IMG/VR virus record: IMGVR_UViG_3300028833_000093
Source: an uncultured virus (IMG/VR IMGVR_UViG_3300028833_000093)
Taxonomy: Duplodnaviria; Heunggongvirae; Uroviricota; Caudoviricetes
Strand: one strand, 5' to 3'
Length of the DNA: 55,302 nucleotides
Shown: in pieces, positions 1,471-31,503 of the stretch
Layout of the letters: every line of letters starts with the position of its first letter
Numbering within the stretch: the stretch's first letter is position 1
Notes under the pieces: model-generated
The model's database searches: none
The model's input: the letters and a program-made list of their open reading frames with translations, nothing else
What the model was told of the DNA's origin: nothing
Program-made: the position numbers and the translations under genes

Positions 1471-3105
1471 GTGGGTTGTATTATAAAAAGAATATTACAA
1501 TTTCAGGATTCAGTAGTTTTTGGTCCCGTTAAAATCATAGATAACACCGGAGCTGATGTAACAAATACATGTTTATTCAGTTGGTCTGATGATATGGTAT
1601 GCTGGACAAATTGGGTGAACTACAAAACATACTTGAATTTAGCTAAAAACCTCGAAAGTGATTTCTTCTTAAGAGTATTGGTTATCACAACAGTAAATAG
1701 GGTTTTCATCAATAATATGGAAACCAATTGTTACAGTCTTTGTCTGTATAATCCAAATCCTTTTTTAGAAGATTTATGTAATCAAACACTATTCAATCCT
1801 TATGCCGGTCTGGATTGCGCTTTGCTTTTACAGAACCAACTAGCGAACAGCGTAATCTGTATGCTGGGAATTCCAATCTATTATTTCCGAGTACTTCCAC
1901 AGAAAGATACAGCAGATTACACTTTCAAGGAGTATATCATGCATAATGTTGAAAGCGTAAAGCAGATGAAGATGATGATCCAAGATGGAACAATGCCTTC
2001 TTCAAAACCACAATTCTCTGATTTGGATTTTGATTGGGAAGTAGATTGGGATGTTGAACTGAGTAAGCAACAGTTCGCTCAGGCATTCGGTGATACAGCA
2101 TTTCCAAAACAAAGAGATTTTATTTATGTGCCTATGATGAAACGTATGTGGGAGGTCAACTCTGCATATGACGAGAAGAATGAAGGCTTACTCTGGAGAC
2201 CAACCACATGGAAGCTGGGATTGATTAAATGGAATGAGAAAACCAATGTAGAACAAGGTGATTTTGATGAATATATAGACAAGTTGGTAGTAAATACATA
2301 CGATAATGTATTTGCTGAATTGGAAGAAAACGAACAAACCAGAACAACCGCTACGACACAAGTAGAAAGACCATTGTATACTGCCAATAATCTTGATAAC
2401 GTATTTTTACAAGATGCAATAAGAAAGCAAATGACCAAGAAACTGATAAATATTGCTGAGAAACAATACAATAATGGTTCGATTATTGTGGCAAAAAATA
2501 TTTATGAATTCAAAGATCCTACCGCTCTTATCACCTACCAAAAAGGTTATTGTGGTGAGGATGGTACACTCTCATTTATAATTGACATATCAGAAGTAAA
2601 ACCAATAATCGGAGAGTATAAGCCAATTATTTCTTTCGGTAATATAACTATTGAAACGGATGGGGTATCAGTTAAATTCGGCGATGCTGTTGCGAGATTA
2701 GATAAACAAAAAAATGATACCGGGGAAGTTATTTCTAATGAATATCTTGTAATCTGTAAATGGAATAGAAGAACATTCGTACAAGAAATCATCGCTTATC
2801 CATATACATATCCGGTTGATGTGCCTGTGTATAAATTGAAAGCAGAGATGTATAAGTTTGATTTTGATGTGGTAGAAGAGAACGGCAGTTGTGCTTACAA
2901 TAATGACAATATAACTTCAAAACAGCAAGAAGTAATTGTGATGGGGTATCCTGTAAAACTAACAAATATCAAATTGTTTAACAAATATTTGACTAATGAG
3001 GAAGCTATAAAAGAATCTATTAAGTATACAACCACATGTGCAAGCTGTGTACTGAACGATTTAGCAAGACCATTAGATTACGGAAACGGATATGCAGTTA
3101 AGTAA
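1471..3105 (+). CDS. Putative neck/head-completion protein (T4 gp14-like central region)
   Basis: GIPIYYFRVLP...DYTFKEY and FGDTAFPKQRDFIYVPMMKRMWEV resemble gp14-family motifs; structural context. Confidence 0.5.
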   Translation: MGCIIKRILQFQDSVVFGPVKIIDNTGADVTNTCLFSWSDDMVCWTNWVNYKTYLNLAKNLESDFFLRVLVITTVNRVFINNMETNCYSLCLYNPNPFLEDLCNQTLFNPYAGLDCALLLQNQLANSVICMLGIPIYYFRVLPQKDTADYTFKEYIMHNVESVKQMKMMIQDGTMPSSKPQFSDLDFDWEVDWDVELSKQQFAQAFGDTAFPKQRDFIYVPMMKRMWEVNSAYDEKNEGLLWRPTTWKLGLIKWNEKTNVEQGDFDEYIDKLVVNTYDNVFAELEENEQTRTTATTQVERPLYTANNLDNVFLQDAIRKQMTKKLINIAEKQYNNGSIIVAKNIYEFKDPTALITYQKGYCGEDGTLSFIIDISEVKPIIGEYKPIISFGNITIETDGVSVKFGDAVARLDKQKNDTGEVISNEYLVICKWNRRTFVQEIIAYPYTYPVDVPVYKLKAEMYKFDFDVVEENGSCAYNNDNITSKQQEVIVMGYPVKLTNIKLFNKYLTNEEAIKESIKYTTTCASCVLNDLARPLDYGNGYAVK

Positions 3106-4133
3106 TGAAAGATTTATACGGTTATATTGGTAAAAAGAATAGATGCAAATTGGTATGTCTAGGTGATATACTTGCACACGTAGAAGTGTATGAAGCAGCC
3201 AGACAAGGTAATTGTTTTGATTTTAAACCAATATTCACAGATATTAAACCCATAATAAAAAATGCTGACCTAGCTTTTTGTAACCAAGAATCTATTTTAG
3301 GTGGTGAAAAACTGGGTTTGCATGGCGGCGAGTACAAGAAAATCGGTACAGAAGCAAATCCTATATTCAATTCTCCGTATGAATTGGGTGATGCAGTGAT
3401 TGATTGTGGATTTAATCTTATATCATTAGCAAATAATCATACATTAGATAATGGTGAAGCTGGTGTACGTAATTCGCTTGAATTTTGGAGACAACAATTC
3501 AGACGTGCCTATACATCAGGATCTTGGAATAATGATATTGACAGAAGTTTTATAAGAATACAGTCATGCAACGGTATAAGATTTGCCTTTATAGCATACA
3601 CTGCAAAAACAAATACAATATTACCACCATCTGGAAAAGATTATCTAACAAATATATATTCACCAGAAAAAGCGAAGAGAGATATTGATAGTATAAGAGA
3701 CAAAGTAGATATGATTATAGTATCAATGCATTGGGGAACTGAATATAATTTGGGAAAAATAGATGATAACCAAAAAGAAATTGCTGAGTATCTATCAAGC
3801 CTTGGCGTAAACATAATCATTGGGCATCATCCACATGTCATAGAGCCTATCGAATTTATAAATGATACGCTTGTTATTTATTCATTAGGTAATGGGTTAG
3901 CAAGACAAGATGGTGATGACTTGATGAAACGTATTGGTGCAATGGTAACTGTTGATATAAACAATTCTCGTGAAAAATTAAATATCAAATTAGACAATAT
4001 TGAACTAACCTATATATATTATACAAATAACTATAAAGACTTTAAGATTATTCCATTTTCTCAACTGACTGATAATGAACTGCCAGATTATAAGAAAATA
4101 GAAAACGAATATATGAAATATATCAAAAAATGA
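3105..4133 (+). CDS. CapA/PGA_cap-family metallophosphoesterase
   Basis: GD, NQES, SLANNHTLD, SMHWGTEY, GHHPHVIEP, YSLGN motifs. Confidence 0.9.
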   Translation: MKDLYGYIGKKNRCKLVCLGDILAHVEVYEAARQGNCFDFKPIFTDIKPIIKNADLAFCNQESILGGEKLGLHGGEYKKIGTEANPIFNSPYELGDAVIDCGFNLISLANNHTLDNGEAGVRNSLEFWRQQFRRAYTSGSWNNDIDRSFIRIQSCNGIRFAFIAYTAKTNTILPPSGKDYLTNIYSPEKAKRDIDSIRDKVDMIIVSMHWGTEYNLGKIDDNQKEIAEYLSSLGVNIIIGHHPHVIEPIEFINDTLVIYSLGNGLARQDGDDLMKRIGAMVTVDINNSREKLNIKLDNIELTYIYYTNNYKDFKIIPFSQLTDNELPDYKKIENEYMKYIKK

Positions 4134-5299
4134 AATCACTATTTAACTATATTAACGAAAATACTATACACAAACTTTCAAAATCGGAACGAAAGATATT
4201 ATTGAGTATAGACAGAGATTATAAAGAGTTATATACTGAATATTGGAATAAATGGTATGATAGTGGTGTAACTAATCAACGCAGCGAATTTAAGAAATTT
4301 ATGGATGCTCGTAAAAATGGTGAAAAATACTACCCACAACTACAAATATCATTAGACGCATTGGATAGCAGTTTTCTTAAGAAATGCCGTGTTCTTCGTG
4401 CTAGGTGTACACAGTTTCCATGTTTTCTTAGTAAATATTATATTGGCAAGATTGATGAGATGTATTGTCAAGCTAACTGGGCAGTCAACCCATGCAAAGA
4501 GACGATGAACGAATTCAATCATTTTTTGCATGTTGATATTGATGATGACACTTATAATAGTGCAATGAAAATGCTCAATGATCATCCATGGGAAGATGTA
4601 TCTGATGAACAAACGATGACAGGGGTCGATGTAGTTCCACAATTACAGCAGCATATAGAGAAACTAGGTTACGAATACGATGCAGTTCTTAATGATAATC
4701 TGTTAGCACGTATGAAAGTGATACCGAACAGACCAGAGCTGCAAATAAAAACAAGTGCAAAATATTCAAAAATCGATGTAGGTAGCTTAAAAGTACACGA
4801 AGTAGAAGTACATTGCGGTAGACGTTATTACGGTATGCAACAAGGTTTATATTTGATGTTAGATGGACTACCAGGACGTAACACATTAGATGAAGGTATG
4901 GCAATATACAATTCAATGCATATGAATCCAATGGGCATCAAACCGAATCTGTTCTGGAAAGTAGCAATAAAAATATATATAGCAAAACATATAGATAAAG
5001 ATTTTTGCGATTTATTTGAAGATATTAAATCGTTATGTCCTACAGCGCCAGACAGAGAAATTTTTGAAAACCTGTTACGATTCAAACGAATGCTCAAAGA
5101 CTGTTCATTACCAGGAGGAGACTGTTTAATACAATCTGATTATTTTATAGGTTATCAAATGATAAAGAAAATGGATGAACAATTACGTAAAGATATATTG
5201 CATTATAATATCGGGCCTGCACAGATTGGAGAATTAGATAATATTAAGAAATTTTTTAAGTTGAACAAATTCAAAAAAATATCAAAAGACAATATATAA
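4130..5299 (+). CDS. DUF1704/MATCAP-like (QEGLA-motif) zinc metallopeptidase
   Basis: HEVEVH (HExxxH), downstream DEGMA, YFIGY. Confidence 0.7.
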   Translation: MKSLFNYINENTIHKLSKSERKILLSIDRDYKELYTEYWNKWYDSGVTNQRSEFKKFMDARKNGEKYYPQLQISLDALDSSFLKKCRVLRARCTQFPCFLSKYYIGKIDEMYCQANWAVNPCKETMNEFNHFLHVDIDDDTYNSAMKMLNDHPWEDVSDEQTMTGVDVVPQLQQHIEKLGYEYDAVLNDNLLARMKVIPNRPELQIKTSAKYSKIDVGSLKVHEVEVHCGRRYYGMQQGLYLMLDGLPGRNTLDEGMAIYNSMHMNPMGIKPNLFWKVAIKIYIAKHIDKDFCDLFEDIKSLCPTAPDREIFENLLRFKRMLKDCSLPGGDCLIQSDYFIGYQMIKKMDEQLRKDILHYNIGPAQIGELDNIKKFFKLNKFKKISKDNI

Positions 5300-6459
5300 T
5301 GAAATCATTAAAATCATATATAATAAAAGCAGATTCTAAGCTAAAACTGACTGAAGAACAGAAAAAAACATTGCTTGATTTTGATAGGAAGTATAATAAA
5401 TTAATTATGCTTTTTAGAAACGAACACAATGGAAAAGATATATTGAATTTTAAAGAAGAACGAGATAAGTTTATATCTGAATATAAAGCCGGAAGAAAAT
5501 ACTATCCACTATTAAAATTTAACAAAGACAAAATCAATCCAACTGAGATGAAAAATAAATTTCAGCAGTTATTATTAGAGATTGAGTTGATTGATTTTGA
5601 TTGTATTCTGTTTAAGTATTATAAGCGTTCGATAAATTTCATGATTATGGTGTGTGAGCATCTTGAAAAGAAATATGTAGGACATTATTTCACTGTTACA
5701 TATCCTTCTGAGATTACCAATGAGATTTATCAGGAAGCATTAAATATCATAACACATTATAACTACGAACAAAATGTTACTGATGGTCGAAATAGAGATG
5801 CTGAATATGCGAAAGAAAAAATAGAAGCAGCAGTAAAAGAACTTGGTTATGACTGGGAAGTTAAGATATATGATAACATGGTACCACGTATGAATGTGTT
5901 GCCAAATGGTATTGTTCGTATTAATAAAACTGCAAAATTCAGTGATGTTGATATTGATGGTCTTATAGCACATGAGATTAAAGGTCATGTCGGTCGTAGG
6001 TATTATGGTAAGAAAACAGGATTATACCTGTTTGTACATGGGTTACCAAACAGAAATATATATGATGAAGGCTTGGCAGTATGGAATAGTTTAAATTTAT
6101 GTGAAAAACCAAAACCAAATATATTGTTCAATATTGCTTTAAAATGTTTTATCGCATATAACGCTCAACATTTAGATTTTTATGATTTATTTGAGTTATG
6201 CAAAAAAACGGTTCCTTTTGTTGAAGATAAGAAAATCGTAAGTGCATTATTAAGAAATAAACGCGATGAAGTAGACACTAGTTTACTCGGGGGTGATATT
6301 ACAGATGCATCGTATTTTGTTGGGTATAAATTAATTAATGCGATGAACGATAAAGAGCGAGATGATATTCTAAAATGGAATATCGGTCCAGACCAAATAA
6401 ATGATCTACCTAATATTAAGCGCTTCTTTAATCTAAATAAATTTGAACCGTTGATATGA
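5299..6459 (+). CDS. DUF1704/MATCAP-like zinc metallopeptidase (paralog)
   Basis: HEIKGH, DEGLA, YFVGY; clear paralog of the upstream ORF (GRRYYG, NIGPxQI). Confidence 0.72.
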   Translation: MKSLKSYIIKADSKLKLTEEQKKTLLDFDRKYNKLIMLFRNEHNGKDILNFKEERDKFISEYKAGRKYYPLLKFNKDKINPTEMKNKFQQLLLEIELIDFDCILFKYYKRSINFMIMVCEHLEKKYVGHYFTVTYPSEITNEIYQEALNIITHYNYEQNVTDGRNRDAEYAKEKIEAAVKELGYDWEVKIYDNMVPRMNVLPNGIVRINKTAKFSDVDIDGLIAHEIKGHVGRRYYGKKTGLYLFVHGLPNRNIYDEGLAVWNSLNLCEKPKPNILFNIALKCFIAYNAQHLDFYDLFELCKKTVPFVEDKKIVSALLRNKRDEVDTSLLGGDITDASYFVGYKLINAMNDKERDDILKWNIGPDQINDLPNIKRFFNLNKFEPLI

Positions 6460-10934: not shown

Positions 10935-11008
10935 GCCTCGGTAGCTCAGTTGGATAGAGCAACAGCCTTCTAAGCTGTGGGTCCTGCGTTCGAGTCGCAG
11001 CCGGGGTA
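10935..11008 (+). tRNA. tRNA-Arg(TCT)
   Basis: Cloverleaf; acagc-cttctaa-gctgt. Confidence 0.95.
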
Positions 11009-11024
11009 CTAAAATAAAAAGATT

Positions 11025-11321
11025 ATGCCAAACAAAGATTTTTACAAAGCAAGCGATGTACCGAAGTTTCAACAAGATGTTTGTTTGAAAACTTGTATAT
11101 GCAAAGGCAAATGTATTGAAGAAGGTAAAGACAATCATTGGTTTTTAATGTGCCCTCACTACTTCAATTGGAAGTTAGATGTAAAATCATTCGTTATTGA
11201 CCAATTACAATGGGAACACGAACATCCCGAAGAAGCAGAAGCAAAACACAAAGAATTAGTCGAACGTGCAAAAGCATGGAAGGCTTCACAAAAGAAAACA
11301 AAAACGAAAAAGAAAGATTAA
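11025..11321 (+). CDS. Hypothetical Cys-rich protein
   Basis: 98-aa ORF. Confidence 0.6.
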   Translation: MPNKDFYKASDVPKFQQDVCLKTCICKGKCIEEGKDNHWFLMCPHYFNWKLDVKSFVIDQLQWEHEHPEEAEAKHKELVERAKAWKASQKKTKTKKKD

Positions 11322-11352
11322 CATTTTATAGATATTTCTTATGTTGATTTAT

Positions 11353-11520
11353 ATGAAAACAAAAAACATCAACATAGAAATACTGAAACAAGTTAAAAAG
11401 ATGCAACGCGAAGAGGAAATCCGATTACACGGCAAACAAATCTCGTTCCGTCGTCTGATTACTCAAAATAAAAAGAAATATAATCGGAAAAAGTTAGAAA
11501 AAATCTCAACAGACGATTAA
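11353..11520 (+). CDS. Small basic protein (55 aa), possibly ArfA/BrfA-like
   Basis: MKTKNINIEILKQVKKMQREEEIRLHGKQISFRRLITQNKKKYNRKK; not in the ORF track, translated by hand. Confidence 0.55.
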   Translation: MKTKNINIEILKQVKKMQREEEIRLHGKQISFRRLITQNKKKYNRKKLEKISTDD

Positions 11521-11566
11521 ATTTTTCTAAGTATTTCCTATATTATTCTTGTTGCACTTGAAATAC

Positions 11567-11639
11567 TGGGAGATCGTCTAATCGGTTAGGACGCCAGTCC
11601 GATACACTGGTAATCCGGGTTCAAGTCCCGGCCTCCCAA
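11567..11639 (+). tRNA. tRNA-Ile(GAT), atypical (C33)
   Basis: ccagt-ccgatac-actgg; GGTTCAAGTCC T arm. Confidence 0.7.
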
Positions 11640-11798
11640 CAATAAAAATGATCTTTGACATATTGATATAGGCTAAAAAGAAAAATCTTTTGTTCACTGA
11701 AAAAAGACTGTTCTATTTCATAGAACGAAACTTTTTAAGTGAACGAAAAAATAAATATAGCGTAGTGCTTATGTGAAATAATCATTACGCAAAAAAAT

Positions 11799-11884
11799 GG
11801 CGCTGTGGTGGAATTGGTAGACACGAGGGACTTAAAATCCCTTGCTCAGTGATGAGCGTGCCGGTTCGAGTCCGGCCAGCGCTA
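11799..11884 (+). tRNA. tRNA-Leu(TAA)
   Basis: aggga-cttaaaa-tccct, long variable arm. Confidence 0.95.
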
Positions 11885-11910
11885 CATTTTCCAGGTAACA
11901 CTGGAGGTTA

Positions 11911-11986
11911 CAACTTCAAGCTTTGAATGGACGAAGCGCTGGATTTTACCAGTAGATGCGAGGATCGTTACCTCGGGAGTTGGCCA
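11911..11986 (+). ncRNA. tRNA-like RNA with 6-nt anticodon loop and ATCGTTA T-loop
   Basis: caacttc/ggagttg acceptor + G-CCA; gctt/aagc D stem; gctgg-atttta-ccagt; cgagg-atcgtta-cctcg. Confidence 0.6.
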
Positions 11987-11996
11987 TTTATTATTT

Positions 11997-12068
11997 GCCC
12001 TTTTAGTATAACGGTTATTACACATGATTTGTAATCTTGAGATCTCAGTTCGATTCTGGGAGAGGGCT
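11997..12068 (+). tRNA. tRNA-Thr(TGT)
   Basis: catga-tttgtaa-tcttg. Confidence 0.85.
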
Positions 12069-12338
12069 CAACAGTTGAAGGAAAACAACTTTAAAATAAC
12101 CCATTGGCTGATTAGGAATGGGTACAACAGCACAAAGTCTTTGGGTAGTGTGAAGAGACCAAGAGAGATGAAACACTAGACTCTCAATTATATCGGTCAT
12201 AACGTCAATTCCACCGATAATCAAAATGGAATGGTCGCGGCTGAGCGAGAGAAAGCTGGGTTATATTAGAACTCTCATACTAAAGTTCTTTTCGGTACGA
12301 ACTTATCGTTAGTGGATGATTACCACATGTTTTTATAT

Positions 12339-12409
12339 TGTCCTCTCGTATATCGGTAGTACATCAGATTTTGGTTCTGAGGGGCGAGGTTCGACTCCTC
12401 GGAGGACAA
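12339..12409 (+). tRNA. tRNA-Gln(TTG)
   Basis: tcaga-ttttggt-tctga. Confidence 0.93.
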
Positions 12410-12417
12410 CAATTATT

Positions 12418-12489
12418 GGGGAAGTGGCGTAGCGGTAGCGCAGCGGACTGTTAATCCGTAGGTCGTCGGTTCGAATCCGGCCTTCCCCG
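12418..12489 (+). tRNA. tRNA-Asn(GTT)
   Basis: gcgga-ctgttaa-tccgt. Confidence 0.93.
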
Positions 12490-12594
12490 CACCAAAAATA
12501 GGTTCAAGCTGTACATAGGACCTTCTGGTAATTCTTATCAAAGTTTAGACCAGACGCTTGGGAGCTTATAGTCCTGCGATAGTGCGACTAAATC

Positions 12595-12667
12595 GGGCCG
12601 GGTAGTGTAACGGCTAGCACGTCACATTTGCACTGTGACAGAGGGGTTCGAATCCCACCTGTGTCCA
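12595..12667 (+). tRNA. tRNA-Ala(TGC), degenerate acceptor and T stems
   Basis: tcaca-tttgcac-tgtga; mismatched acceptor stem. Confidence 0.55.
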
Positions 12668-12679
12668 CTTTTTAATATC

Positions 12680-12753
12680 GGGGTCGTAGTTCACCTGGCT
12701 AGAACATCTGCTTTGCAAGCAGGAGGTAGTGAGTTCGAGTCTCACCGGCTCCA
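12680..12753 (+). tRNA. tRNA-Ala(TGC)
   Basis: tctgc-tttgcaa-gcagg; G3:U70. Confidence 0.93.
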
Positions 12754-12797
12754 CAATAAAATTTGCGGCTGGAGATTACGCATCAAAGGTCGCTTTC

Positions 12798-12889
12798 GGA
12801 GGTCTAAGCCTAATTGGTAAGGCAGTAGTCTTGAAAACTACTAGTAATCGTGTAAAAGCGGTGTGTCGGTTCGAGTCCGGCGGCCTCCA
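12798..12889 (+). tRNA. tRNA-Ser(TGA)
   Basis: gtagt-cttgaaa-actac, long variable arm. Confidence 0.92.
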
Positions 12890-12987
12890 CTATTCTCAAA
12901 CCTTGTGGGTGCTAGAAAACACCACATGCAGAAAGTAGAAGAATTTGACGTCACTCTTTGAAATTTGGTTCGTCCCTGAGAATATTT

Positions 12988-13062
12988 CGGGTAGTGGTCC
13001 AGTTGGTCTAAGATGCCTGATTTGGGTTCAGGAGGCCGTGAGTTCGAATCTCGCCTACCCGA
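12988..13062 (+). tRNA. tRNA-Pro(TGG)
   Basis: cctga-tttgggt-tcagg. Confidence 0.92.
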
Positions 13063-13132
13063 CAATAAAAAACTCACAGCGGTCTGTCAATGAGAGTTTC
13101 CATACCGGTTAGGAGACAGAGACCGCAGTTTT

Positions 13133-13216
13133 GGGACAGCGGCGAAGTTGGAGAGTCGCAACGGTCTGTAAAACCGTCGCCTTTCGGCTAAGTAGGTTCG
13201 AATCCTACCTGTCCCA
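13133..13216 (+). tRNA. tRNA-Tyr(GTA)
   Basis: acggt-ctgtaaa-accgt, variable arm. Confidence 0.94.
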
Positions 13217-13301
13217 CGATTGCAATTTGAATAGATAATAGGGATCCAGTCTATTCACACAAGAGCTAATATGCAGGCTTAGAAGATTTAGGCTCTTACA
13301 T

Positions 13302-13378
13302 TGGGTCGTATCCCCTCAAGCTTATACCTTGTAGAAAGGGTAGTCGGTTGCACGTGGGTTCAAATCCCTCCGGCCCAA
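13302..13378 (+). ncRNA. Non-canonical tRNA-like RNA (TAT anticodon, no D-arm)
   Basis: tgggtcg/cggccca acceptor; ccct-caag-cttatac-cttg-tagaa-aggg extended arm; GGTTCAAATCC. Confidence 0.65.
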
Positions 13379-13385
13379 CAATTAT

Positions 13386-13466
13386 TGGTTAGTAGTCAAG
13401 TGGCCAACGACAGCAGACTGTTAATCTGCCCCGAAAGGTTCACAGGTTCGAATCCTGTCTAGCCAG
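13386..13466 (+). tRNA. tRNA-Asn(GTT) with long variable arm
   Basis: gcaga-ctgttaa-tctgc; cc-gaaa-gg variable hairpin. Confidence 0.85.
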
Positions 13467-13598
13467 CAAAAAAATGCATCAAAAAGTTAACACATTACGA
13501 TGAGGGCATTTACCTCTGCAGAAGGTTTAATAATCGGAAATGGTACCTGTTTTATTTAGGAGGTCGGTCAGGTCTAACAAAAACGCAATCTCCAATTT

Positions 13599-13729
13599 TG
13601 CGACGTAGCTCAGTTGGTAGAGCACTTAAAACAAATTCAATCGCTTGTTACGCTAAAAGGCTGTTGTATGATTAGAATTTCATCGGTATGTTAAACCAGT
13701 GGTCGTTGGTTCGAGTCCAGCCGTCGCAG
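13599..13729 (+). ncRNA. tRNA-shaped RNA carrying a permuted Y-RNA-like (Ro60-binding-type) stem, copy 1
   Basis: Canonical acceptor, D and T arms; insert aaattc-aatc-gcttgttac-gctaaaaggc-tgttgtat-gatt-a-gaattt-catc then ggt-atgttaa-acc. Confidence 0.75.
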
Positions 13730-13747
13730 CAAATTATGTCTTAGCTT

Positions 13748-13821
13748 GGGCGCCTAGTATAATTGGTTAGTATTCCAGGATCATTTCTTGGCGGTATGAG
13801 GTTCGAATCCCTTGGAGTCCT
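13748..13821 (+). tRNA. Degenerate tRNA(CAT)
   Basis: ccagg-atcattt-cttgg; weak T stem. Confidence 0.5.
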
Positions 13822-13837
13822 TGTTTAAGACATTCAT

Positions 13838-13969
13838 AGAGAGATAGTTTAATTGGTAAAATGCGAACAAGTATATCCAATCGCTTGTTACGCTAAAATG
13901 GCTGTTGTATGATTAGGATTTCATCGTCATTCCAAGACCGTGTTGTTGGTTCGAGTCCAGCTCTCTCTG
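13838..13969 (+). ncRNA. tRNA-shaped RNA carrying a permuted Y-RNA-like stem, copy 2
   Basis: agagaga/tctctct acceptor; ~48-nt core nearly identical to copy 1 with compensatory atcc/ggat; gtc-attccaa-gac. Confidence 0.75.
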
Positions 13970-13997
13970 CAAAATTATTCGATGTTTGATTAAAATT

Positions 13998-14070
13998 GGT
14001 CCGCTAGCTCAATTGGTAGAGCACCGCCCTTTTAAGGCGGGGGTTCCGGGTTCGATCCCCGGGCGGGCCA
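13998..14070 (+). tRNA. tRNA-Lys(TTT)
   Basis: ccgcc-cttttaa-ggcgg. Confidence 0.95.
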
Positions 14071-14072
14071 CT

Positions 14073-14258
14073 CGCGAATTGGTGTAATAAACATAAGAAC
14101 CTACCGGAAAAGTAACTTCGGTTCTGGTCCTGACTATCCGAAATGGTTGTGTAGTGTACAATACATAGCCCGAGTAGGAAACGGGTTGGTAGTGTGTACG
14201 TACACAGCACGGCACCCTGATATGGTGTTAGTTACGTGGAAGTCGTAGTTCGCAACCA
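14073..14258 (+). ncRNA. tRNA-Ile(GAT)-like RNA with ~120-nt structured D-loop insertion
   Basis: cgcgaat/gttcgca + A-CCA; D stem gtgt(14082)/gcac(14207); gcacc-ctgatat-ggtgt; tacg-tggaagt-cgta. Confidence 0.65.
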
Positions 14259-14265
14259 AAAATTT

Positions 14266-14349
14266 GGCTCCGTGGCGGAATTGGTATACGCGGCAGACTC
14301 AAAATCTGCTCCCAGCAATGGGGTGTGGGTTCGAGTCCCACCGGAGCTA
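14266..14349 (+). tRNA. tRNA-Leu(CAA)
   Basis: gcaga-ctcaaaa-tctgc. Confidence 0.95.
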
Positions 14350-14359
14350 CAATTTATAT

Positions 14360-14432
14360 TGGGGTATAGTTCAGTTGGTAGAATGTTGGTCTCCAAAACC
14401 GAAGATCGTGGGTTCGAGTCCTACTGCCCCTG
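14360..14432 (+). tRNA. tRNA-Trp(CCA)
   Basis: ttggt-ctccaaa-accga. Confidence 0.93.
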
Positions 14433-14498
14433 CTAGGAGAAACAACTTATGGCAGAATCTCGTCAGTTATTGTGTACCTTTTAGGCGAGATTGTGTTT

Positions 14499-14570
14499 GC
14501 CCCGATAGTTCAATGGATAGAACGGATGGCTACGGACCATCTGATACGGGTTCGACTCCTGTTCGGGGTA
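14499..14570 (+). tRNA. tRNA-Arg(ACG)
   Basis: gatgg-ctacgga-ccatc. Confidence 0.93.
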
Positions 14571-14595
14571 CAAAAATAAATAAAAAGTAAAATAT

Positions 14596-14799
14596 ATGTT
14601 TAATTTTAAGTTTAGCTCAAAAACAGCAAAAGTTTTATTTTGGGTAGCCGTATCATTGATTCTTGCTGGTGGTGCAACCGCCGTAGCATACAAATGTGTA
14701 AAGACTGATGCAGATCCTGAAATTCCTGTACAAGTTGTAGTTGATACAACAGCAGTTTTGGATGCAGTGGTTCCAGCTGATACATTAGTACTTGAGTAA
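14596..14799 (+). CDS. Small membrane-anchored protein
   Basis: N-terminal hydrophobic helix VLFWVAVSLILAGGATAVAY. Confidence 0.6.
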   Translation: MFNFKFSSKTAKVLFWVAVSLILAGGATAVAYKCVKTDADPEIPVQVVVDTTAVLDAVVPADTLVLE

Positions 14800-14846
14800 T
14801 TGATACAAGGTTTTGAACGTTGTACCCAGTAAACAACGTCCTTTAT

Positions 14847-14922
14847 GGTGTTCGTGGTGGAGCGGTCTAACACGCCAGATTGTGGTTCTGGTATATCGCA
14901 GGTTCGAATCCTGTCGAACACC
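14847..14922 (+). tRNA. tRNA-His(GTG)
   Basis: ccaga-ttgtggt-tctgg; G-1:C73. Confidence 0.93.
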
Positions 14923-14924
14923 CT

Positions 14925-15000
14925 ATCACCGGGTTCGTAATTGAATCTTAGAACCGTATACTAGTTGAGCTCACAGGGTCGGAGCGTTACCGGCGGTGAT
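14925..15000 (+). ncRNA. tRNA-like RNA lacking a proper anticodon arm (AGCGTTA T-loop)
   Basis: atcaccg/cggtgat; ggttc/gaacc; tcgg-agcgtta-ccgg. Confidence 0.45.
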
Positions 15001-15004
15001 ATTT

Positions 15005-15078
15005 ATCCTGGTAGGCAAATAGGAAAAGCCGATAGATTTAGGATCTATTGTTTGTGGGTTCGACTCCCACCTGGGGTA
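15005..15078 (+). tRNA. tRNA-Leu(TAG) with short variable loop
   Basis: ataga-tttagga-tctat; variable region only ~5 nt. Confidence 0.75.
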
Positions 15079-15108
15079 CAATCAAAAAAGTCTATATCAA
15101 TATAAAAT

Positions 15109-15196
15109 GGAGAGTTACCCAAGTTGGTGAAGGGGGCACATTGCTAACGTGCTAGGTCAGGAAACTGGCGCGGGGGTTCGAGTCCCTCACTCTCCG
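15109..15196 (+). tRNA. tRNA-Ser(GCT)
   Basis: gcaca-ttgctaa-cgtgc, long variable arm. Confidence 0.92.
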
Positions 15197-15229
15197 CAGA
15201 AAAAATAACAAAAATTTTTCAAATATAAG

Positions 15230-15257
15230 TTAATTTTTGAAAACCATTTGTTATATT
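15230..15257 (+). promoter_or_regulatory. Putative phage promoter TTAATTT-N15-TATATT
   Basis: Exact motif; followed by boxA-like gatctttgaaaa at 15278. Confidence 0.65.
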
Positions 15258-15292
15258 GATTGTATAATACGAAACATGATCTTTGAAAATAC

Positions 15293-15623
15293 AATATAAA
15301 GACAAGCTATTGTTCATAGATATCCAGGTAGTTGGTAAGGATTGAAGAATAGAACTTCAAACACTTCGCTAATTTGCTTGAAATAGAGCACATGGAATAT
15401 CGAATTGTTACCGGCGTAACATGAACCGGGAGTCGTAAGGAACATAGCCCGAAGTCAACAAAACGAGAGTTTGACGCAATTAAGCACGTCACCGTACGGA
15501 TAGCACAATTGCCTCTCAATAACGCAAACTGGACAAGTGTAACCAGATAGCTGCCGGATATTAGTCTATTCAATGATATCCGTCTCAGAGCACTTCGGCG
15601 AACCTCTAGACTTGTCTTATATT
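15293..15623 (+). ncRNA. Unassigned ~330-nt structured ncRNA
   Basis: Ends pair (atataaagacaag/cttgtcttatat); inner gatatccaggtagtt/agctgccggatatt; no plus-strand ORF. Confidence 0.6.
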
Positions 15624-15626
15624 TTT

Positions 15627-15700
15627 GCCCCTGTAGGCGAATTGGCTAAGCCGTCACCCTTTCACGGTGAAGATTTCGGGTTCGAACCCCGGCGGGGGTA
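15627..15700 (+). tRNA. tRNA-Glu(TTC)
   Basis: tcacc-ctttcac-ggtga. Confidence 0.93.
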
Positions 15701-15786
15701 CAATACTTTGTCAAATGGTGGTACCCACTCAAAGTGCTGGATCTATGGTGTTCATACCAGTATAAATAAGAAGAACATCTCTCTTT

Positions 15787-15861
15787 GGAGACGTAGTGTA
15801 ATGGCTTAACATACCACCCTGTCACGGTGCGCGAGTGCGGGTTCGAGTCCCGTCGTCTCCG
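15787..15861 (+). tRNA. tRNA-Asp(GTC)
   Basis: cacc-ctgtcac-ggtg. Confidence 0.9.
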
Positions 15862-15884
15862 CAAAAAGAACATTGAAATAAATT

Positions 15885-15958
15885 GGGTCTGTCGTCCAGT
15901 GGTTCAGGACGCTTGCCTTACAAGCAAGAGATCGTTGGTTCGAATCCAACCAGACCCA
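15885..15958 (+). tRNA. tRNA-Val(TAC)
   Basis: cttgc-cttacaa-gcaag. Confidence 0.94.
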
Positions 15959-15960
15959 CT

Positions 15961-16060
15961 TGTGGTGGAGTGAAACGGATATTGAGTTTTGTAACTATCA
16001 CTCAGAAATCATTGGAGGCCCATAACCTCCAGATAGTGGGTTCGACTCCCACGGCCGCAA
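15961..16060 (+). tRNA. tRNA-Met(CAT) with extra hairpin in the D-loop
   Basis: ggagg-cccataa-cctcc; tgagt...actca insertion between D-stem strands gtga/tcat. Confidence 0.75.
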
Positions 16061-16174
16061 CTAAATAACTATTATAAATATATAAGACAATGAAACGAAA
16101 ACATCTTAAGCATATTGATTAAAACTTTGATAGCACTGCATTTTATGCTATCAAGGAGTACACAAAAATAAAAA

Positions 16175-16248
16175 GTCCTCGTAGCATAATTGGAACAGTG
16201 CCTCTGACTTTTAATCAGAAGATGTGGGTTCGAGTCCCAACGGGGACA
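16175..16248 (+). tRNA. tRNA-Lys(TTT)
   Basis: tctga-cttttaa-tcaga. Confidence 0.9.
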
Positions 16249-16255
16249 CTAAAAA

Positions 16256-16328
16256 GGTCTTATAGTTCAATTGGTTAGAATATGTGACTCTTAATCATAG
16301 GATCTCGGTTCGAGTCCGGGTGGGACCA
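16256..16328 (+). tRNA. tRNA-Lys(CTT)
   Basis: tgtga-ctcttaa-tcata. Confidence 0.9.
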
Positions 16329-16358
16329 CAAAAAATGAACATTGAAATAATTAAATAT

Positions 16359-16433
16359 GGAGCGGTAGCGCAGTTGGTCAGTTCGCGGCGGACTGAAAAT
16401 CCGTAGATGGTGGTTCGATTCCACCCCGCTCCA
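16359..16433 (+). tRNA. tRNA-Phe(GAA)
   Basis: gcgga-ctgaaaa-tccgt. Confidence 0.92.
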
Positions 16434-16542
16434 CGTGAAAAGCTGTAGAGTATGATTTGACAGTAGTCCTCTTAATTCAGCAACCTTGTTAGTACTGCAG
16501 TATTAAGAAAACACTAATAAGGACAAAAGGAAACTGGTTATT

Positions 16543-16677
16543 GGCGCAGTGGTGAAATTAAAAAACGTCTTAATCGTCATTTCTGCAAACCACTTGCTAG
16601 CGTTAGATTAGGAATACATCGGAAAACACACATTTTTATGGAAAATGAGATTACAAGTTCGACTCTTGTCTGCGCCA
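16543..16677 (+). ncRNA. tRNA(ATG)-like RNA with a Y-RNA-like stem inserted in the D-loop
   Basis: ggcgcag/ctgcgcc; cattt-ttatgga-aaatg; acaag-ttcgact-cttgt; insert cttaatc-gtcatttct-gc...gc-tagcgtta-gattagg-aatacatcg. Confidence 0.65.
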
Positions 16678-16799
16678 CACATCTTTGCAATTTTGTCTCG
16701 TCCCGACGGGCACAACGGGCGTAAGAAGTTAGCACTACTACATCATCCGGAGAGCGGAGCAAGATATAACTTCGGCAAGTACGTAAAGCTTGCAGCCAT

Positions 16800-16871
16800 G
16801 CCGAGATAGTACAACGGTTAGTACAGTCGTCTCATACGCGATGGATGGTAGTTCGATTCTATCTCTCGGTA
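16800..16871 (+). tRNA. tRNA(CAT), Met or Ile2
   Basis: gtcgt-ctcatac-gcgat. Confidence 0.85.
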
Positions 16872-17073
16872 CAAGAAAAATCTCTTTGCGACTTGCATGA
16901 TACGAGTGTACATGAAACATGCAAGTAAAGAAATCAAAAATGATTATAAATAAGTTAGTGGTGAATTTTATAATAAAAAACAGCAAATGAGAGATTTCGG
17001 GTACGCTATACGCAATGTTACAACGGCGGTTGAACAAGTGCAATGATGAGTTGCAAATCATCTTAGCGAAAAA

Positions 17074-17143
17074 AGATATATAGTGTAATGGGAGCACGCC
17101 TGCGTGAAGACAGGAAGTAGCGGTTCGAATCCCTTATATTCTA
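17074..17143 (+). pseudogene. Degenerate tRNA-like element (GAA-containing 8-nt loop)
   Basis: tagtgtaatgggagcac D arm, cctg-cgtgaaga-cagg, GGTTCGAATCC; poor acceptor and T stems. Confidence 0.45.
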
Positions 17144-17353
17144 CAACAGTTGGAGTTACAATTCCAGTGAAATATGCTCCAAGGTCCTTGACTTACCTGG
17201 AATAAGTGTGAAGGAACAGGTTGGTGGATAATGCGTTGGAAATAGATTTGAGACTATCGAAAACCCTTAAACAAGGCAATCTTAACTACTCATTTCGAGT
17301 TTGCCCACCTCGTGTAAAGTACCGAAAGCAGAGTGCTGTAAGCTTTACAATTT

Positions 17354-17425
17354 GCAGGTATAGCATAGTGGTTAATGCTCCAGTTTGCCATACTGGAGAC
17401 CCGAGTTCGATTCTCGGTACCCGCT
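17354..17425 (+). tRNA. tRNA-Gly(GCC)
   Basis: ccagt-ttgccat-actgg. Confidence 0.9.
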
Positions 17426-17428
17426 CTC

Positions 17429-17503
17429 GCAGCAATGGTGTTCAATGGTTTAGCATATGAGCCCTCCAAGCTCGAGGTGTCGGTTCGAATCCGGTTTGCT
17501 GCA
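17429..17503 (+). tRNA. tRNA-Gly(TCC)
   Basis: tgagc-cctccaa-gctcg (C33). Confidence 0.85.
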
Positions 17504-17563
17504 CTATTCTTTAATTTTTCCACCAATTTACATTTATTATTTAATTTGAGTATGTTATAAAAC

Positions 17564-18232
17564 ATGAAATGGACATTATTGAACATATTGTTGCTAATAA
17601 ATATTTTGGTGTATGGAAGCGGTTACAATGACTGTAGCAATTATTACAATCGCAGTAATAATATACCTACTCAGCAGGAATACCGAAGAATAGGATATAC
17701 TACAAATTATTCAAATGGTAATTTTAACTCATCAGTATATCAAACCAATAGTAATTTCGGTTATACAACACTCCATCGAAACAATTACACTACGGTACAT
17801 ACATATTCCGGCACTTACCAACCAGGAAACACTTCAAGACCGGGAGGTTCAGGGCCAAGAAGAATAACAGTGTACGATGGAAACGACAATTCAAGAGAAA
17901 CACCCGGTGGGGATAGAGATCCAGAAGGAGTATATCAATATGATGAAACGACAGGGATTTGGTACTATTCACCAGACGAAGGACAAACTTGGTATGAATA
18001 TAGACGAGCTTCTGGCTTCTGGGAAATGTTCATCGGTTTGTTTGGTGGGGGATGGGGTAATGACTGGAGATCTGTCAGTCATGAACCAACTGAAAATACC
18101 GAAAAGTGGGCATCAGACCCAGATGATCCATTCTTAACACCGGTAGGAGAATTTCCTATTGGTTTATTACTAATGCTAATGTTTATATACATACTATATC
18201 GAAATAGAACATACAGAAATGAAAAAACCTAA
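17564..18232 (+). CDS. Exported protein with C-terminal PEP-CTERM-like (PVG-TM-basic) sorting signal
   Basis: N-terminal signal peptide; ...DPDDPFLTPVGEFPIGLLLMLMFIYILYRNR. Confidence 0.6.
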   Translation: MKWTLLNILLLINILVYGSGYNDCSNYYNRSNNIPTQQEYRRIGYTTNYSNGNFNSSVYQTNSNFGYTTLHRNNYTTVHTYSGTYQPGNTSRPGGSGPRRITVYDGNDNSRETPGGDRDPEGVYQYDETTGIWYYSPDEGQTWYEYRRASGFWEMFIGLFGGGWGNDWRSVSHEPTENTEKWASDPDDPFLTPVGEFPIGLLLMLMFIYILYRNRTYRNEKT

Positions 18233-29554: not shown

Positions 29555-31455
29555 TAAAGAATATAGCAATTGTAGATATTGGGTGGAAACAAATAAATCC
29601 TGAGAATCCAACTGCTGAAGCGCTTGGAGGTTCAGAAACTTGGTTGGTACAGATTTCTAAAGAGTTTTCTTATCGAGGACATGTAGATGTATATTGTAAT
29701 ATTAAGCAAGATTATTATCGGGTCAATGATAATCTTGTGTTTATCAATGCCAATAAGTTTTTACTACACAAAAACCATTATGACTTTATTATTCTCAATA
29801 GGTTCTTCGAGAAAGATGGTATCAATTACATTCGCTATATAAAAGCTAATCAGATGGCAAAGCATGTATATATACAAATGCATGACTTGTCTTTTCTTGT
29901 TGATGACCATCTTTTACCGATTGGGGAAGACGTAAATAAATTCAGCTTAAACGACGATTTCGTGACCGTTGTGACATTAAATGAATGGCACCTTAATAAT
30001 TTGTTATCGCAATATAAATCGCTCGTTAGAAAGCCAATTTATATTCCTAATGGATTAGACTTATCGCTCTTCAAAGAGAATAACGAACCTAGAGACAATC
30101 GTATACTCTGGTCATCATGTGCGGAACGAGGATTAGATATATTGATAAATGACATCTATCCCATTGTAAAAGCACAAATACACGATTTTGGTGTAGATAT
30201 TGCAAGCTACAATGAATACAAAGCAGTAGACACAGATAAAGATGTACAGTATTTAGGTAGATTGTCGAAAGAAGAATTATACAAAGAGCAATCTAAACAC
30301 AAAGTTTGGTTCTATCCAGGTACTTTCGCTGAGACATTCTGTATCACTATGTTGGAGAATATCATCAATGGAGCACAAGTTGTTTCGCCATTCACATACG
30401 GTACAAGAGCTACCATTAAGTATGCGGACTCTATCGGAATGAAAAATAAATTTGAAGGTGAAACTTATAAACAAGCCGTACAAGAAGCAGCAAACAAAAT
30501 CATCGAGATATTAAAAACAGATGGTACAAGACCGAAGATTTATAATGAATATATTGTACCAATGATTAAACGTGAATATCATTGGTGTGGTTCTGTGAAT
30601 ATGTATGAAGGAGATTTCTTTATTAAAAATCATTACGATAAATCAGTCCGGAAGAAGATTCTTATCATGACGATGAGCTGCAATCAACCATTCTTTAAGG
30701 CATTGTTGGGTGCAGTTCGTGACACATGGGGTAAGAAATTATTGCACAATCAGTATAAAGATTGTACTTGGTTCGCATATACCTCATGCGACAAGAAACA
30801 CCCAACTCCGTGTGTAGACTTTGAAGACCATATGGTATATGTGGATTGTGATGACAGTATTTTTAACACCTATGAGAAAACCAAAAAAGCATATAATCTC
30901 ATCAAGAATGTCGGGGTGGAGTTCGATTATGTGGTAAGAACAAACACTTCGGTATATGTAAATATTGATAAGATGATTGAAAAAGTCAATGAAACACCAG
31001 ATGATGCAGTGCTAGGTGGTATGGTGGGTTATTATCACAAATTCCCGGATGGTCATATGCAATTTATGTGGAATATATTAGTCGGTTTGTTCTTTGGCAT
31101 GTCACGAAAATACTTCAATATTGCTATGTCTGCTACTAATAACTACGACACAATACCTACTTCAGATGATGTGATTATCTCTGGTAAATTACACGAGGTA
31201 TTAGGAGAATTAAAATATATATCACCTAATCCAAACTGTCCTACTACTTTCCCGAGATATAAAGCATACTTACCGGGAGATGAAGATGCAAAAAAGATTC
31301 ACACTCTTACCAATACTACTTTCACTGATGACCCACAGTCTGTAAACAATAATGTGGTAGTTCAGATACGAACGCTGTATGGTGATCTACCGGAGCGAGC
31401 AGAGAAAGGACATGAATTGGAACATTTTTATGAATTATATGATGCACAAGATTAA
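29551..31455 (+). CDS. Two-domain glycosyltransferase (GT-B/GT4-like + GT-A-like)
   Basis: LGGSET, SCAERGLD, ETFCITMLE; C-terminal YEKT, FDYVVRTNTS, SDDV. Confidence 0.78.
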   Translation: MIKNIAIVDIGWKQINPENPTAEALGGSETWLVQISKEFSYRGHVDVYCNIKQDYYRVNDNLVFINANKFLLHKNHYDFIILNRFFEKDGINYIRYIKANQMAKHVYIQMHDLSFLVDDHLLPIGEDVNKFSLNDDFVTVVTLNEWHLNNLLSQYKSLVRKPIYIPNGLDLSLFKENNEPRDNRILWSSCAERGLDILINDIYPIVKAQIHDFGVDIASYNEYKAVDTDKDVQYLGRLSKEELYKEQSKHKVWFYPGTFAETFCITMLENIINGAQVVSPFTYGTRATIKYADSIGMKNKFEGETYKQAVQEAANKIIEILKTDGTRPKIYNEYIVPMIKREYHWCGSVNMYEGDFFIKNHYDKSVRKKILIMTMSCNQPFFKALLGAVRDTWGKKLLHNQYKDCTWFAYTSCDKKHPTPCVDFEDHMVYVDCDDSIFNTYEKTKKAYNLIKNVGVEFDYVVRTNTSVYVNIDKMIEKVNETPDDAVLGGMVGYYHKFPDGHMQFMWNILVGLFFGMSRKYFNIAMSATNNYDTIPTSDDVIISGKLHEVLGELKYISPNPNCPTTFPRYKAYLPGDEDAKKIHTLTNTTFTDDPQSVNNNVVVQIRTLYGDLPERAEKGHELEHFYELYDAQD

Positions 31456-31479
31456 TTTCTTGTGCATTTTTCGTATATT
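31452..31479 (+). promoter_or_regulatory. Putative phage promoter TTAATTT-N15-TATATT
   Basis: Exact motif. Confidence 0.62.
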
Positions 31480-31503
31480 GAATTGTAACAACTTACAAAG
31501 CTT

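What the first reader, a model, noticed from the sequence alone, without database searches (positions are those of the whole stretch)
14073..14258. tRNA-Ile(GAT)-like gene with a ~120-nt multi-hairpin insertion in the D-loop
Seen: acceptor with encoded CCA, a well-formed anticodon arm and a variant T-loop (TGGAAGT). The D-stem strands (14082-85, 14207-10) are separated by 121 nt with a ctacc/ggtag closing helix, UUCG and GAAA tetraloops, a tagcccg/cgggttg stem and the palindrome tgtgtacgtacaca. The insert is too short for a typical group I intron and not at the bacterial intron position. Inference: a tRNA scaffold displaying an aptamer/ribozyme-like domain, or a new intron type. tRNA finders would probably miss it.
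Basis: partly seen in the sequence, partly recalled or inferred. Interest (0 to 1): 0.72.

Follow-up and report, generated by a model that had tools for sequence, protein, structure and literature searches.

The report
Self-pairing tRNA mimic in jumbo phages
Several giant gut phages carry a small RNA gene that keeps the end of a start-codon tRNA but has lost a fixed anticodon and gained an extra folded arm tipped with a self-complementary loop, so it probably works as a two-headed tRNA look-alike and not as an isoleucine tRNA or an intron.

Summary
The anatomy is real, the label is wrong. 14073-14258 is one of 8 distinct members of an RNA family found only in jumbo-phage tRNA arrays and missed by ARAGORN and Rfam. 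D-stem and the helix closing the 95-140-nt D-loop domain covary. The anticodon loop is not conserved (GAT only here; a normal tRNA-Ile lies at 11567), so it is not an Ile tRNA. The acceptor end has the initiator-tRNA marks C1·A72, G2-C71, C3-G70, A73 and encoded CCA (8 of 8), the T-loop is UGGAAGU, and every copy starts 2-3 nt behind another tRNA. No insert-free allele was found and no excision restores a canonical tRNA, so an intron is unlikely. New here: the domain's apical loop holds a self-complementary hexamer in 8 of 8 members, in five different sequences, the signature of kissing-loop homodimers. Best reading: an unspliced, non-decoding, dimerising mimic of the initiator-tRNA acceptor arm, perhaps a decoy for host tRNA-end enzymes (role inferred, untested). 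Against: single-sequence folding does not favour this fold, the window's hexamer is weak, few members, expression only hinted. Not seen in my literature searches or among this scan's earlier findings.

The parts
13998..14070 (+). upstream tRNA-Lys(TTT); the element always follows a tRNA, whose identity varies (Lys, Val, Met, Gln, Gln, Asp, Pro, Ala)
14071..14072 (+). 2-nt spacer; T at -1 in 8 of 8 members, able to pair with A73
14073..14079 (+). acceptor 5' strand, C1 mismatched to A72, initiator-tRNA-like
14082..14085 (+). D-stem 5' strand; two compensatory changes in L139
14086..14100 (+). conserved A-rich single-stranded linker at the start of the D-loop domain (type A members)
14101..14107 (+). 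P1 5' strand (closing helix of the domain), followed by an invariant run of four A at 14108-14111
14112..14125 (+). variable side element (UUCG remnant here; absent, a plain hairpin or a second palindrome-loop hairpin in others)
14129..14132 (+). P2 5' strand; first three pairs kept in 8 of 8, third pair U-G / A-U / U-A
14145..14170 (+). P3 hairpin, 9-bp stem, 8-nt loop 14154-14161
14155..14160 (+). self-complementary hexamer TGTACA, proposed kissing loop; other members GTGCAC, GCATGC, CGCGCG, ACGCGT
14182..14192 (+). P2 3' strand (14182-85) and P1 3' strand (14186-92), with the GGTTG motif seen in 8 of 8
14194..14205 (+). second palindrome, 12 nt, in the 6 type A members (two versions, both palindromic)
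14207..14210 (+). D-stem 3' strand
14212..14228 (+). anticodon-like arm; stem covaries, loop not conserved (CAT somewhere in the arm in 6 of 8, not in this copy)
14233..14247 (+). T-arm, 4 bp (5 if it borrows G14248), loop TGGAAGT
14248..14258 (+). acceptor 3' strand, A72, A73 and encoded CCA

Best explanation
A non-decoding RNA derived from an initiator tRNA gene. It is transcribed with the phage tRNA array and cut out of it (inferred: 3' trimming of the tRNA 2-3 nt upstream and/or RNase P; its CCA is encoded). It is not spliced. It keeps an initiator-type acceptor/T half almost unchanged, lets the anticodon loop drift, and replaces the D-loop GG and the T-loop UUC elbow by a 95-140-nt arm (P1, A-rich junction, P2, P3) that ends in a palindromic loop. 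Two molecules pair loop to loop (kissing complex or extended duplex) and so show two CCA ends. The most likely use is as a bivalent decoy or ligand for a host protein that reads the acceptor arm and CCA end of tRNA and ignores the anticodon, for example a tRNA-end-attacking defence enzyme or an initiator-tRNA enzyme. Shown: family, frame, covariation, position, palindromes. Inferred: processing, dimerisation. Conjecture: the decoy role (about 0.3 on its own).
For: 8 distinct members from 10 public records plus the window, 66-91% identical, all with the domain. Covariation: 8 pairs with double changes, 98.1% of cells paired, 0 of 500 shuffles as high, slid controls 22-48% (6 pairs in the 6 type A members). 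C1·A72, G2-C71, C3-G70, A73 in 8 of 8 and G4-C69 in 7 of 8 are the formyltransferase identity set (PMC9976931, passage); an initiator-type tRNA in related phage locus L146 has the same five acceptor pairs. Anticodon loops differ. Palindromic hexamer in the P3 loop in 8 of 8, five sequences, central dinucleotide TA, GC, AT or CG; a strict hairpin (stem of 7 or more, one purine 3' of the hexamer) in 7 of 8 against 3-13 of 1000 shuffles each; a random loop of that size holds a palindrome 4-9% of the time. Adjacent loop positions that covary cannot pair within one molecule, the argument used for OLE and GOLLD (10.1101/2024.12.08.627333, passage). Gap to the upstream tRNA 2-3 nt in 8 of 8 against 1 of 73 tRNA-tRNA gaps; CCA encoded in 8 of 8 against 4 of 89 tRNAs. 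A close relative lies unbroken across 14071-14192 in contigs of 2 of 4 RNA runs laid. Cas12a3 reads T-arm, acceptor stem and CCA without needing the loops (PMC12851939, passages), showing that such targets exist.
Against: Single-sequence ensembles give the D-stem probability 0.00-0.05 in all 8 and P1/P2 about 0 in 7 of 8; in the window, L123 and partly L133 the hexamer is predicted paired inside the molecule, and the comparative fold of the window copy is -43.5 against -58.4 kcal/mol free. The window's hexamer is the weakest (-4.8 kcal/mol, four A-U pairs), and HIV DIS mutants with more than one A-U pair work poorly (PMC5874298, passage). The strict palindrome test was defined after seeing the data; with the looser rule shuffles pass 6-24% of the time and L133 fails. 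Only 8 related sequences, so changes are few events. Four of them were found with a T-arm pattern, so T-arm invariance is partly built in. R11:Y24, a further initiator mark, is absent. RNA evidence is contigs of one study, cannot exclude DNA, and stops at 14192. No partner protein is identified; the GNAT toxins first said to target initiator tRNA act on elongation in vivo (PMC9177977, passages).
Confidence: 0.5

Rival explanations
1. Monomeric tRNA mimic: same unspliced RNA, but the P3 loop docks inside the molecule (on the 12-nt palindrome next to the D-stem) or binds a protein; no dimer.
For: Minimum-energy folds pair the hexamer with the second palindrome in the window and L123; alternating purine-pyrimidine words cross-pair through G-U in all type A members.
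Against: L119 and L120 lack the second palindrome yet keep a perfect hexamer, unpaired with probability 0.96-0.97; internal docking would not need perfect self-complementarity in five different hexamers.
Confidence: 0.2
2. A divergent but working initiator tRNA with a protective D-loop domain; the window copy has drifted or reads AUC as a start.
For: Initiator acceptor marks in 8 of 8 and CAT in the arm of 6 of 8; the array holds an initiator-like gene with a 35-nt D-loop at 15961-16063.
Against: The CAT lies in loops of unlike size (4-9 nt by the folds), in L120 inside the stem; 2 of 8 have none; no D-loop GG, no T-loop TTC (32 of 32 array tRNAs have both); 3' strand one nt short.
Confidence: 0.1
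3. A new kind of D-loop intron removed by phage or host enzymes, leaving a tRNA.
For: Lak phages have tRNA introns (PMC6784885, passages); the window encodes polynucleotide kinase and RNA-repair-type phosphatase domains at 45601-47041.
Against: 0 of 10 records with this T-arm lack the insert; 0 of 70 in-silico excisions give a D-loop with GG or a default ARAGORN call, 10 calls only at a lowered threshold; no bulge-helix-bulge in the window or L139 and none at a common place in the others; the 14 Lak introns with coordinates in Table S6 start at 37-41; none of the 15 listed joints in RNA contigs skips the insert, 8 more were not shown.
Confidence: 0.08
4. A Y RNA-like tether for the phage's Ro60/TROVE protein.
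For: The window encodes a TROVE protein at 32360-33769; phage Y RNAs have tRNA-like domains and a 5' motif that the first bases partly resemble (PMC4201824, passages).
Against: GNCGAAN0-1G absent in 8 of 8; TROVE gene is 18 kb away; no TROVE in the 3 other viral records, all partial; no YrlA model hit on any member; D-anticodon-T order with open CCA end, unlike YrlA.
Confidence: 0.06
5. A selfish palindromic DNA element lodged in the D-loop of a decaying tRNA pseudogene.
For: Such elements were noted in other genomes of this scan (unchecked note e1-836587); the distribution is patchy.
Against: The insert is single-copy and always inside the same frame (window, G001, G002, G003); the frame is more conserved than the insert and covaries.
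Confidence: 0.04

Closest known systems
Bacterial initiator tRNA (tRNA-fMet)
   Same: C1·A72 mismatch, G2-C71, C3-G70, G4-C69, A73, CCA; same acceptor pairs as an initiator-type tRNA in L146.
   Different: No conserved CAU loop, no R11:Y24, no D-loop GG, T-loop UGGAAGU, one nt short, 95-140-nt D-loop domain.
YrlA / Yrn1 bacterial and phage Y RNAs
   Same: tRNA-derived non-coding RNA with a tRNA-like module plus a second module; occurs in phages (PMC4201824, passages).
   Different: No Ro60 motif, not next to the TROVE gene, unpermuted topology with a true CCA end, non-canonical elbow.
GOLLD and ROOL RNAs
   Same: Function-unknown phage RNAs in tRNA arrays that self-associate through symmetric kissing loops, with conserved A runs (10.1101/2024.12.08.627333 and PMC12990946, passages).
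   Different: Those are 500-800 nt, are not built on a tRNA frame, and are in Rfam; no Rfam model hits this family.
Retroviral DIS kissing hairpin
   Same: Palindromic hexamer flanked by purines in a hairpin loop; L123 has the same hexamer as one DIS type (PMC5874298, passage).
   Different: Analogy only; here the hexamer is often AU-rich and sits in a tRNA mimic.
Lak phage tRNA introns
   Same: Long insertions in tRNA genes of gut megaphages; one carrier (G001) looks Lak-like.
   Different: Lak introns start at positions 37-41 and some have intron-free alleles; this domain is in the D-loop, has no empty allele, and was not found in Lak-A1 or Lak-B5.
tmRNA
   Same: tRNA-like acceptor and T half with encoded CCA around a larger domain (recalled; PMC4201824 passage).
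   Different: No G3-U70, domain in the D-loop and not in the anticodon position, too short, no ARAGORN or Rfam tmRNA hit.

Membership tests
tRNA-Ile(GAT) | GAU anticodon in a 7-nt loop, conserved among homologues | tested here: not met
   in register only in the window copy, 1 of 8
canonical tRNA | D-loop G18G19 and T-loop UUC elbow | tested here: not met
   T-loop TGGAAGT in 8 of 8; 32 of 32 array tRNAs have TTC and GG
canonical tRNA | cloverleaf stems (acceptor, D, anticodon, T) and CCA | tested here: met
   covariation in D and anticodon stems, acceptor and T stems paired but nearly invariant; 3' strand one nt short
initiator tRNA-fMet | C1·A72, G2-C71, C3-G70, G4-C69, A73 | tested here: met
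   8 of 8; G4-U69 in L120
initiator tRNA-fMet | CAU anticodon loop and R11:Y24 | tested here: not met
   CAT in the arm of 6 of 8 but in unlike loops; position 11 is a pyrimidine in 8 of 8
initiator tRNA-fMet | methionylation and formylation | not testable with these tools
   needs in vitro charging
tRNA intron (group I, BHB or Lak type) | insert-free allele, or excision that restores a canonical tRNA | tested here: not met
   0 of 10 records; 0 of 70 excisions
tRNA intron (group I, BHB or Lak type) | group I core or bulge-helix-bulge at the junctions | tested here: not met
   no Rfam group I hit on any member; no BHB in the window or at a common place
tRNA intron (group I, BHB or Lak type) | spliced RNA in vivo | tested here: inconclusive
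   RNA contigs cross the 5' junction only; no listed joint skips the insert
Y RNA (YrlA) | GNCGAAN0-1G Ro60 motif | tested here: not met
   0 of 8
Y RNA (YrlA) | gene adjacent to Ro60/TROVE | tested here: not met
   18 kb away in the window; none in 3 partial records
GOLLD / ROOL | match to the Rfam models, length above 500 nt | tested here: not met
   members are 161-206 nt
symmetric kissing-loop dimer (works-like) | palindromic loop kept through sequence change, including adjacent central bases | tested here: met
   five hexamers, four central dinucleotides, 8 of 8
symmetric kissing-loop dimer (works-like) | dimer observed | not testable with these tools
   needs native gel, mass photometry or cryo-EM
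tmRNA | G3-U70 and tag reading frame | tested here: not met
   C3-G70 in 8 of 8; no tmRNA call

The most novel reading that the evidence does not exclude
A new class of phage anti-defence RNA: a tRNA-derived homodimer (or, through its second palindrome, a higher oligomer) that displays several initiator-type acceptor-CCA ends to soak up or inhibit a host immune enzyme that attacks tRNA 3' ends, passed between unrelated jumbo phages as a module docked behind any tRNA gene.
Probability: 0.2. Interest if true: 0.88.

Novelty: new variant of a known kind. Interest (0 to 1): 0.66.

Why it matters
Phage tRNA arrays are read as supplies of decoding tRNAs; this family shows they also hide tRNA-shaped RNAs that standard finders miss and that are selected for their acceptor end and for self-pairing, not for decoding. 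If it dimerises it would be a small (160-205 nt) natural RNA homodimer built on a tRNA frame, easy to test and to solve. If it is a decoy it would be an RNA answer to defences that cut or block the CCA end, which variant phage tRNAs cannot readily escape (PMC12851939, passage). Its invariant top half is a ready bait for finding the host partner.

Tried and rejected
Anticodon-arm pattern in viral contigs: 118 loci, none a homologue by its flanks. A pattern with one N too many gave 1 chance hit. 5'-end patterns: 3 of 6 and 3 of 4 viral hits and 2 of 2 genome hits were chance (the fourth hit is the contig of L123). T-arm pattern in GTDB genomes: 0. BLAST of three members against 50,697 GenBank phage records: no homologue (one search found only ordinary tRNAs). 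Model R1 on 8 GenBank huge, Lak, PAU and PTm1 genomes: one partial hit at E 0.42 in Lak-B5, not inspected, taken as chance. R1 on 23 viral records: only the 3 known carriers; 13 of the 15 prohead-protease relatives were searched whole, mostly fragments, with 0 hits, including complete G006. Neighbour gene 17564-18232 had no relatives. No whole genome is held for the window. No Rfam hit near the TROVE gene. Promoter and terminator scan at chance level. Group I short-motif check was uninformative.

Full report
Setting. The window is part of a large tailed phage: tail sheath, baseplate wedge, prohead protease, NrdD, polynucleotide kinase, NAD ligase and a TROVE protein. Its sheath is about 30% identical to those of huge phages, Lak, PAU and PTm1; a Bacteroidota host is only an inference from that. 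ARAGORN finds 32 tRNAs, 29 of them in 10935-17504, including an ordinary tRNA-Ile(GAT) at 11567-11640. Neither ARAGORN nor Rfam calls 14073-14258.

Observation. All stated elements are at the stated places; the D-stem strands are 121 nt apart. The region folds better than 196 of 200 shuffles. After the T-loop there are 15 nt, one fewer than in a canonical tRNA, so acceptor and T stems share one G.

Family. Pattern scans found the element in 3 IMG/VR records and 7 of 7 metagenome hits; with the window these are 8 distinct sequences of 161-206 nt, 66-91% identical. All lie in phage-like tRNA arrays. None was found in GTDB genomes or GenBank phages. A covariance model of the six type A members picks up the two type B members at 64 bits and no ordinary tRNA at E<=1. 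It finds nothing in 20 other viral records, among them a complete 197-kb relative whose sheath is 60% identical to the window's, whereas carrier G001 has a 30% identical sheath with an in-frame TAG. The gene is therefore patchy and has probably moved between distant jumbo phages (inference).

tRNA frame. On the model alignment of all 8, 98.1% of cells pair, 8 pairs show double changes, 0 of 500 shuffles reach this and slid controls give 22-48% (the alignment is fitted to the structure, and the unfitted type A alignment gives 97.6% and 6 pairs). The D-stem changes at two pairs in L139, which links the two halves across the domain. The last 27 nt are identical in 7 of 8 and differ once in L120; four members were selected by this arm, but the 3 found through the 5' end have it too. 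The anticodon stem covaries while its loop differs in sequence and size; GAT is in register only in the window, CAT occurs in the arm of 6 of 8. C1·A72, G2-C71, C3-G70 and A73 hold in 8 of 8 and G4-C69 in 7: these are the formyltransferase identity elements (PMC9976931, passages). An initiator-type tRNA in L146 has the same five acceptor pairs. R11:Y24 is missing. The T-loop lacks TTC and the D-loop GG is gone, while 32 of 32 array tRNAs have both; UGGAA still fits the general T-loop fold (consensus recalled, no call). I read this as descent from an initiator tRNA with loss of decoding.

Position. The element starts 2-3 nt after the discriminator of a tRNA in 8 of 8 cases, behind seven different tRNA types, against 1 of 73 tRNA-tRNA gaps in the same loci; it encodes CCA in 8 of 8 against 4 of 89 tRNAs (the script misplaced the discriminator for the window's tRNA-Lys, where direct reading gives 2 nt, and 6 of the 89 look misplaced too). 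This suggests that it relies on the neighbour for 5' maturation and avoids CCA addition (inference).

The domain. Anchored comparison gives a common core in both types: P1 (5 of 5 pairs in six members, 4 of 5 in two), an invariant run of four A, an optional side element of 4-53 nt, P2 (first three pairs in 8 of 8, third pair U-G, A-U or U-A) and a hairpin P3. The interior sequence is otherwise variable, which argues against an aptamer or ribozyme core. The P3 loop holds a perfect palindromic hexamer in all 8: TGTACA (window, L119, L120), GTGCAC, GCATGC, CGCGCG (two), ACGCGT; L120 has a second such hairpin (CTGCAG) whose L119 counterpart keeps a 4-nt core. Seven of 8 have a 7-10-bp stem and one purine 3' of the hexamer, against 3-13 of 1000 shuffles; this rule was set after seeing the data, and under a looser rule shuffles pass 6-24%. 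The two central, adjacent bases occur as TA, GC, AT and CG; adjacent bases cannot pair within a strand, and the same reasoning supports intermolecular kissing loops in OLE and GOLLD (10.1101/2024.12.08.627333, passages). The 12-nt palindrome beside the D-stem also stays palindromic in its two versions, a single event and weak evidence.

Results against. Unconstrained ensembles give the D-stem at most 0.05 in all members and P1/P2 about 0 in seven; in the window and L123 the hexamer is predicted paired internally, and the comparative fold of the window copy costs 15 kcal/mol. The window's hexamer is the weakest (-4.8 kcal/mol); in HIV DIS such AU-rich loops work poorly (PMC5874298, passages). 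The fold thus rests on covariation among few related sequences and would need tertiary or protein help.

Intron, mobile element, Y RNA. No record with this T-arm lacks the insert; none of 70 in-silico excisions gives a D-loop GG or a default ARAGORN call; no shared bulge-helix-bulge exists. Lak introns with coordinates start at 37-41 (PMC6784885, passages and Table S6 rows). The insert is single-copy in the window and in G001-G003. The Ro60 motif is absent in 8 of 8, the TROVE gene is 18 kb off, and three partial carriers lack TROVE.

Expression. Of 22 RNA runs listed I laid 4. Two bovine gut runs of one study hold a relative unbroken over 14071-14192 with 5 differences: a 3208-nt contig at depth 158 and a 210-nt contig at depth 2.6. 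None of the 15 listed joints skips the insert (8 not shown). Contigs cannot show strand or ends, DNA cannot be excluded, and the 3' junction is not bridged. This is a hint of an unspliced transcript, no more.

Mechanism. Shown: a conserved, covarying tRNA-like frame with initiator acceptor marks, no fixed anticodon, a retained domain and a palindromic loop. Inferred: release from the array transcript, no splicing, loop-loop dimerisation. Conjectured: a bivalent decoy for a host enzyme that reads acceptor arm and CCA. Such enzymes exist in anti-phage defence (Cas12a3: PMC12851939, passages), but none is tied to these phages, and the GNAT toxins once assigned to initiator tRNA act on elongation in vivo (PMC9177977, passages).

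Novelty. No Rfam 15 family matches any member. Ten full-text searches listed no paper on such an RNA; a 2026 review of RNA oligomers lists no tRNA-framed homodimer in its table (PMC12990946, passages), and a preprint on short RNA assemblies treats other families (10.64898/2026.07.01.735769, first fifth of the text). Subscription papers and the supplementary motif lists of phage RNA surveys were not seen and could hold it. This scan's index has no look-alike. Verdict: a real, apparently undescribed phage tRNA-mimic family; new variant of a known kind; interest 0.66.

Noticed in passing
window 15961-16063: Initiator-like tRNA(CAT) with a 35-nt D-loop holding a hairpin, weak acceptor stem, again 2 nt behind a tRNA (Val); missed by ARAGORN; its D-arm start matches the normal initiator-type tRNA in L146. 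Possible parallel or intermediate case.
   Followed up: partly
window about 16542-16680: Third tRNA-like gene with a roughly 80-nt D-loop insert, canonical T-loop, ATG in the anticodon loop; an RNA-run contig covers 16540-16678 unbroken. No homologue in the loci held.
   Followed up: partly
window 13600-13733 and 13838-13969: Two tRNA-like genes sharing a ~50-nt insert in the anticodon arm; 122-125-nt tRNA hits of like size sit upstream of the element in L136 and L137. Candidates for Lak-type introns.
   Followed up: partly
window about 15336-15610: Non-coding stretch with by far the deepest contig cover in three of four RNA runs (up to 2764) and many variants; no Rfam hit, no homologue in the loci held. 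Probably an abundant undescribed RNA, perhaps two modules.
   Followed up: partly
window 13302-13378: tRNA-like gene with TAT in the anticodon loop and an odd D/variable region; relatives in L120, L137, L153 with other loops.
   Followed up: partly
window 12189-12335 and 12892-12937: Intergenic elements of the tRNA array conserved in L137 (82%) and in L134, L136, L137 (86-98%), no Rfam name.
   Followed up: no
L123 1045-1219 (-) and L133 26-506: A 175-nt minimal RNase P RNA-like hit just downstream of the element in L123, and a tmRNA-like hit in L133, both below gathering score.
   Followed up: no
window 32360-33769: TROVE/Ro60-like gene with no Rfam Y RNA within 31400-34000.
   Followed up: partly
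window 3105-6459: PGA_cap gene followed by two tandem MATCAP-like peptidase genes, unusual cargo for a phage.
   Followed up: no
L139 4439-4518: tRNA with CTA anticodon (amber suppressor-like) in a carrier's array, hinting at TAG recoding.
   Followed up: no
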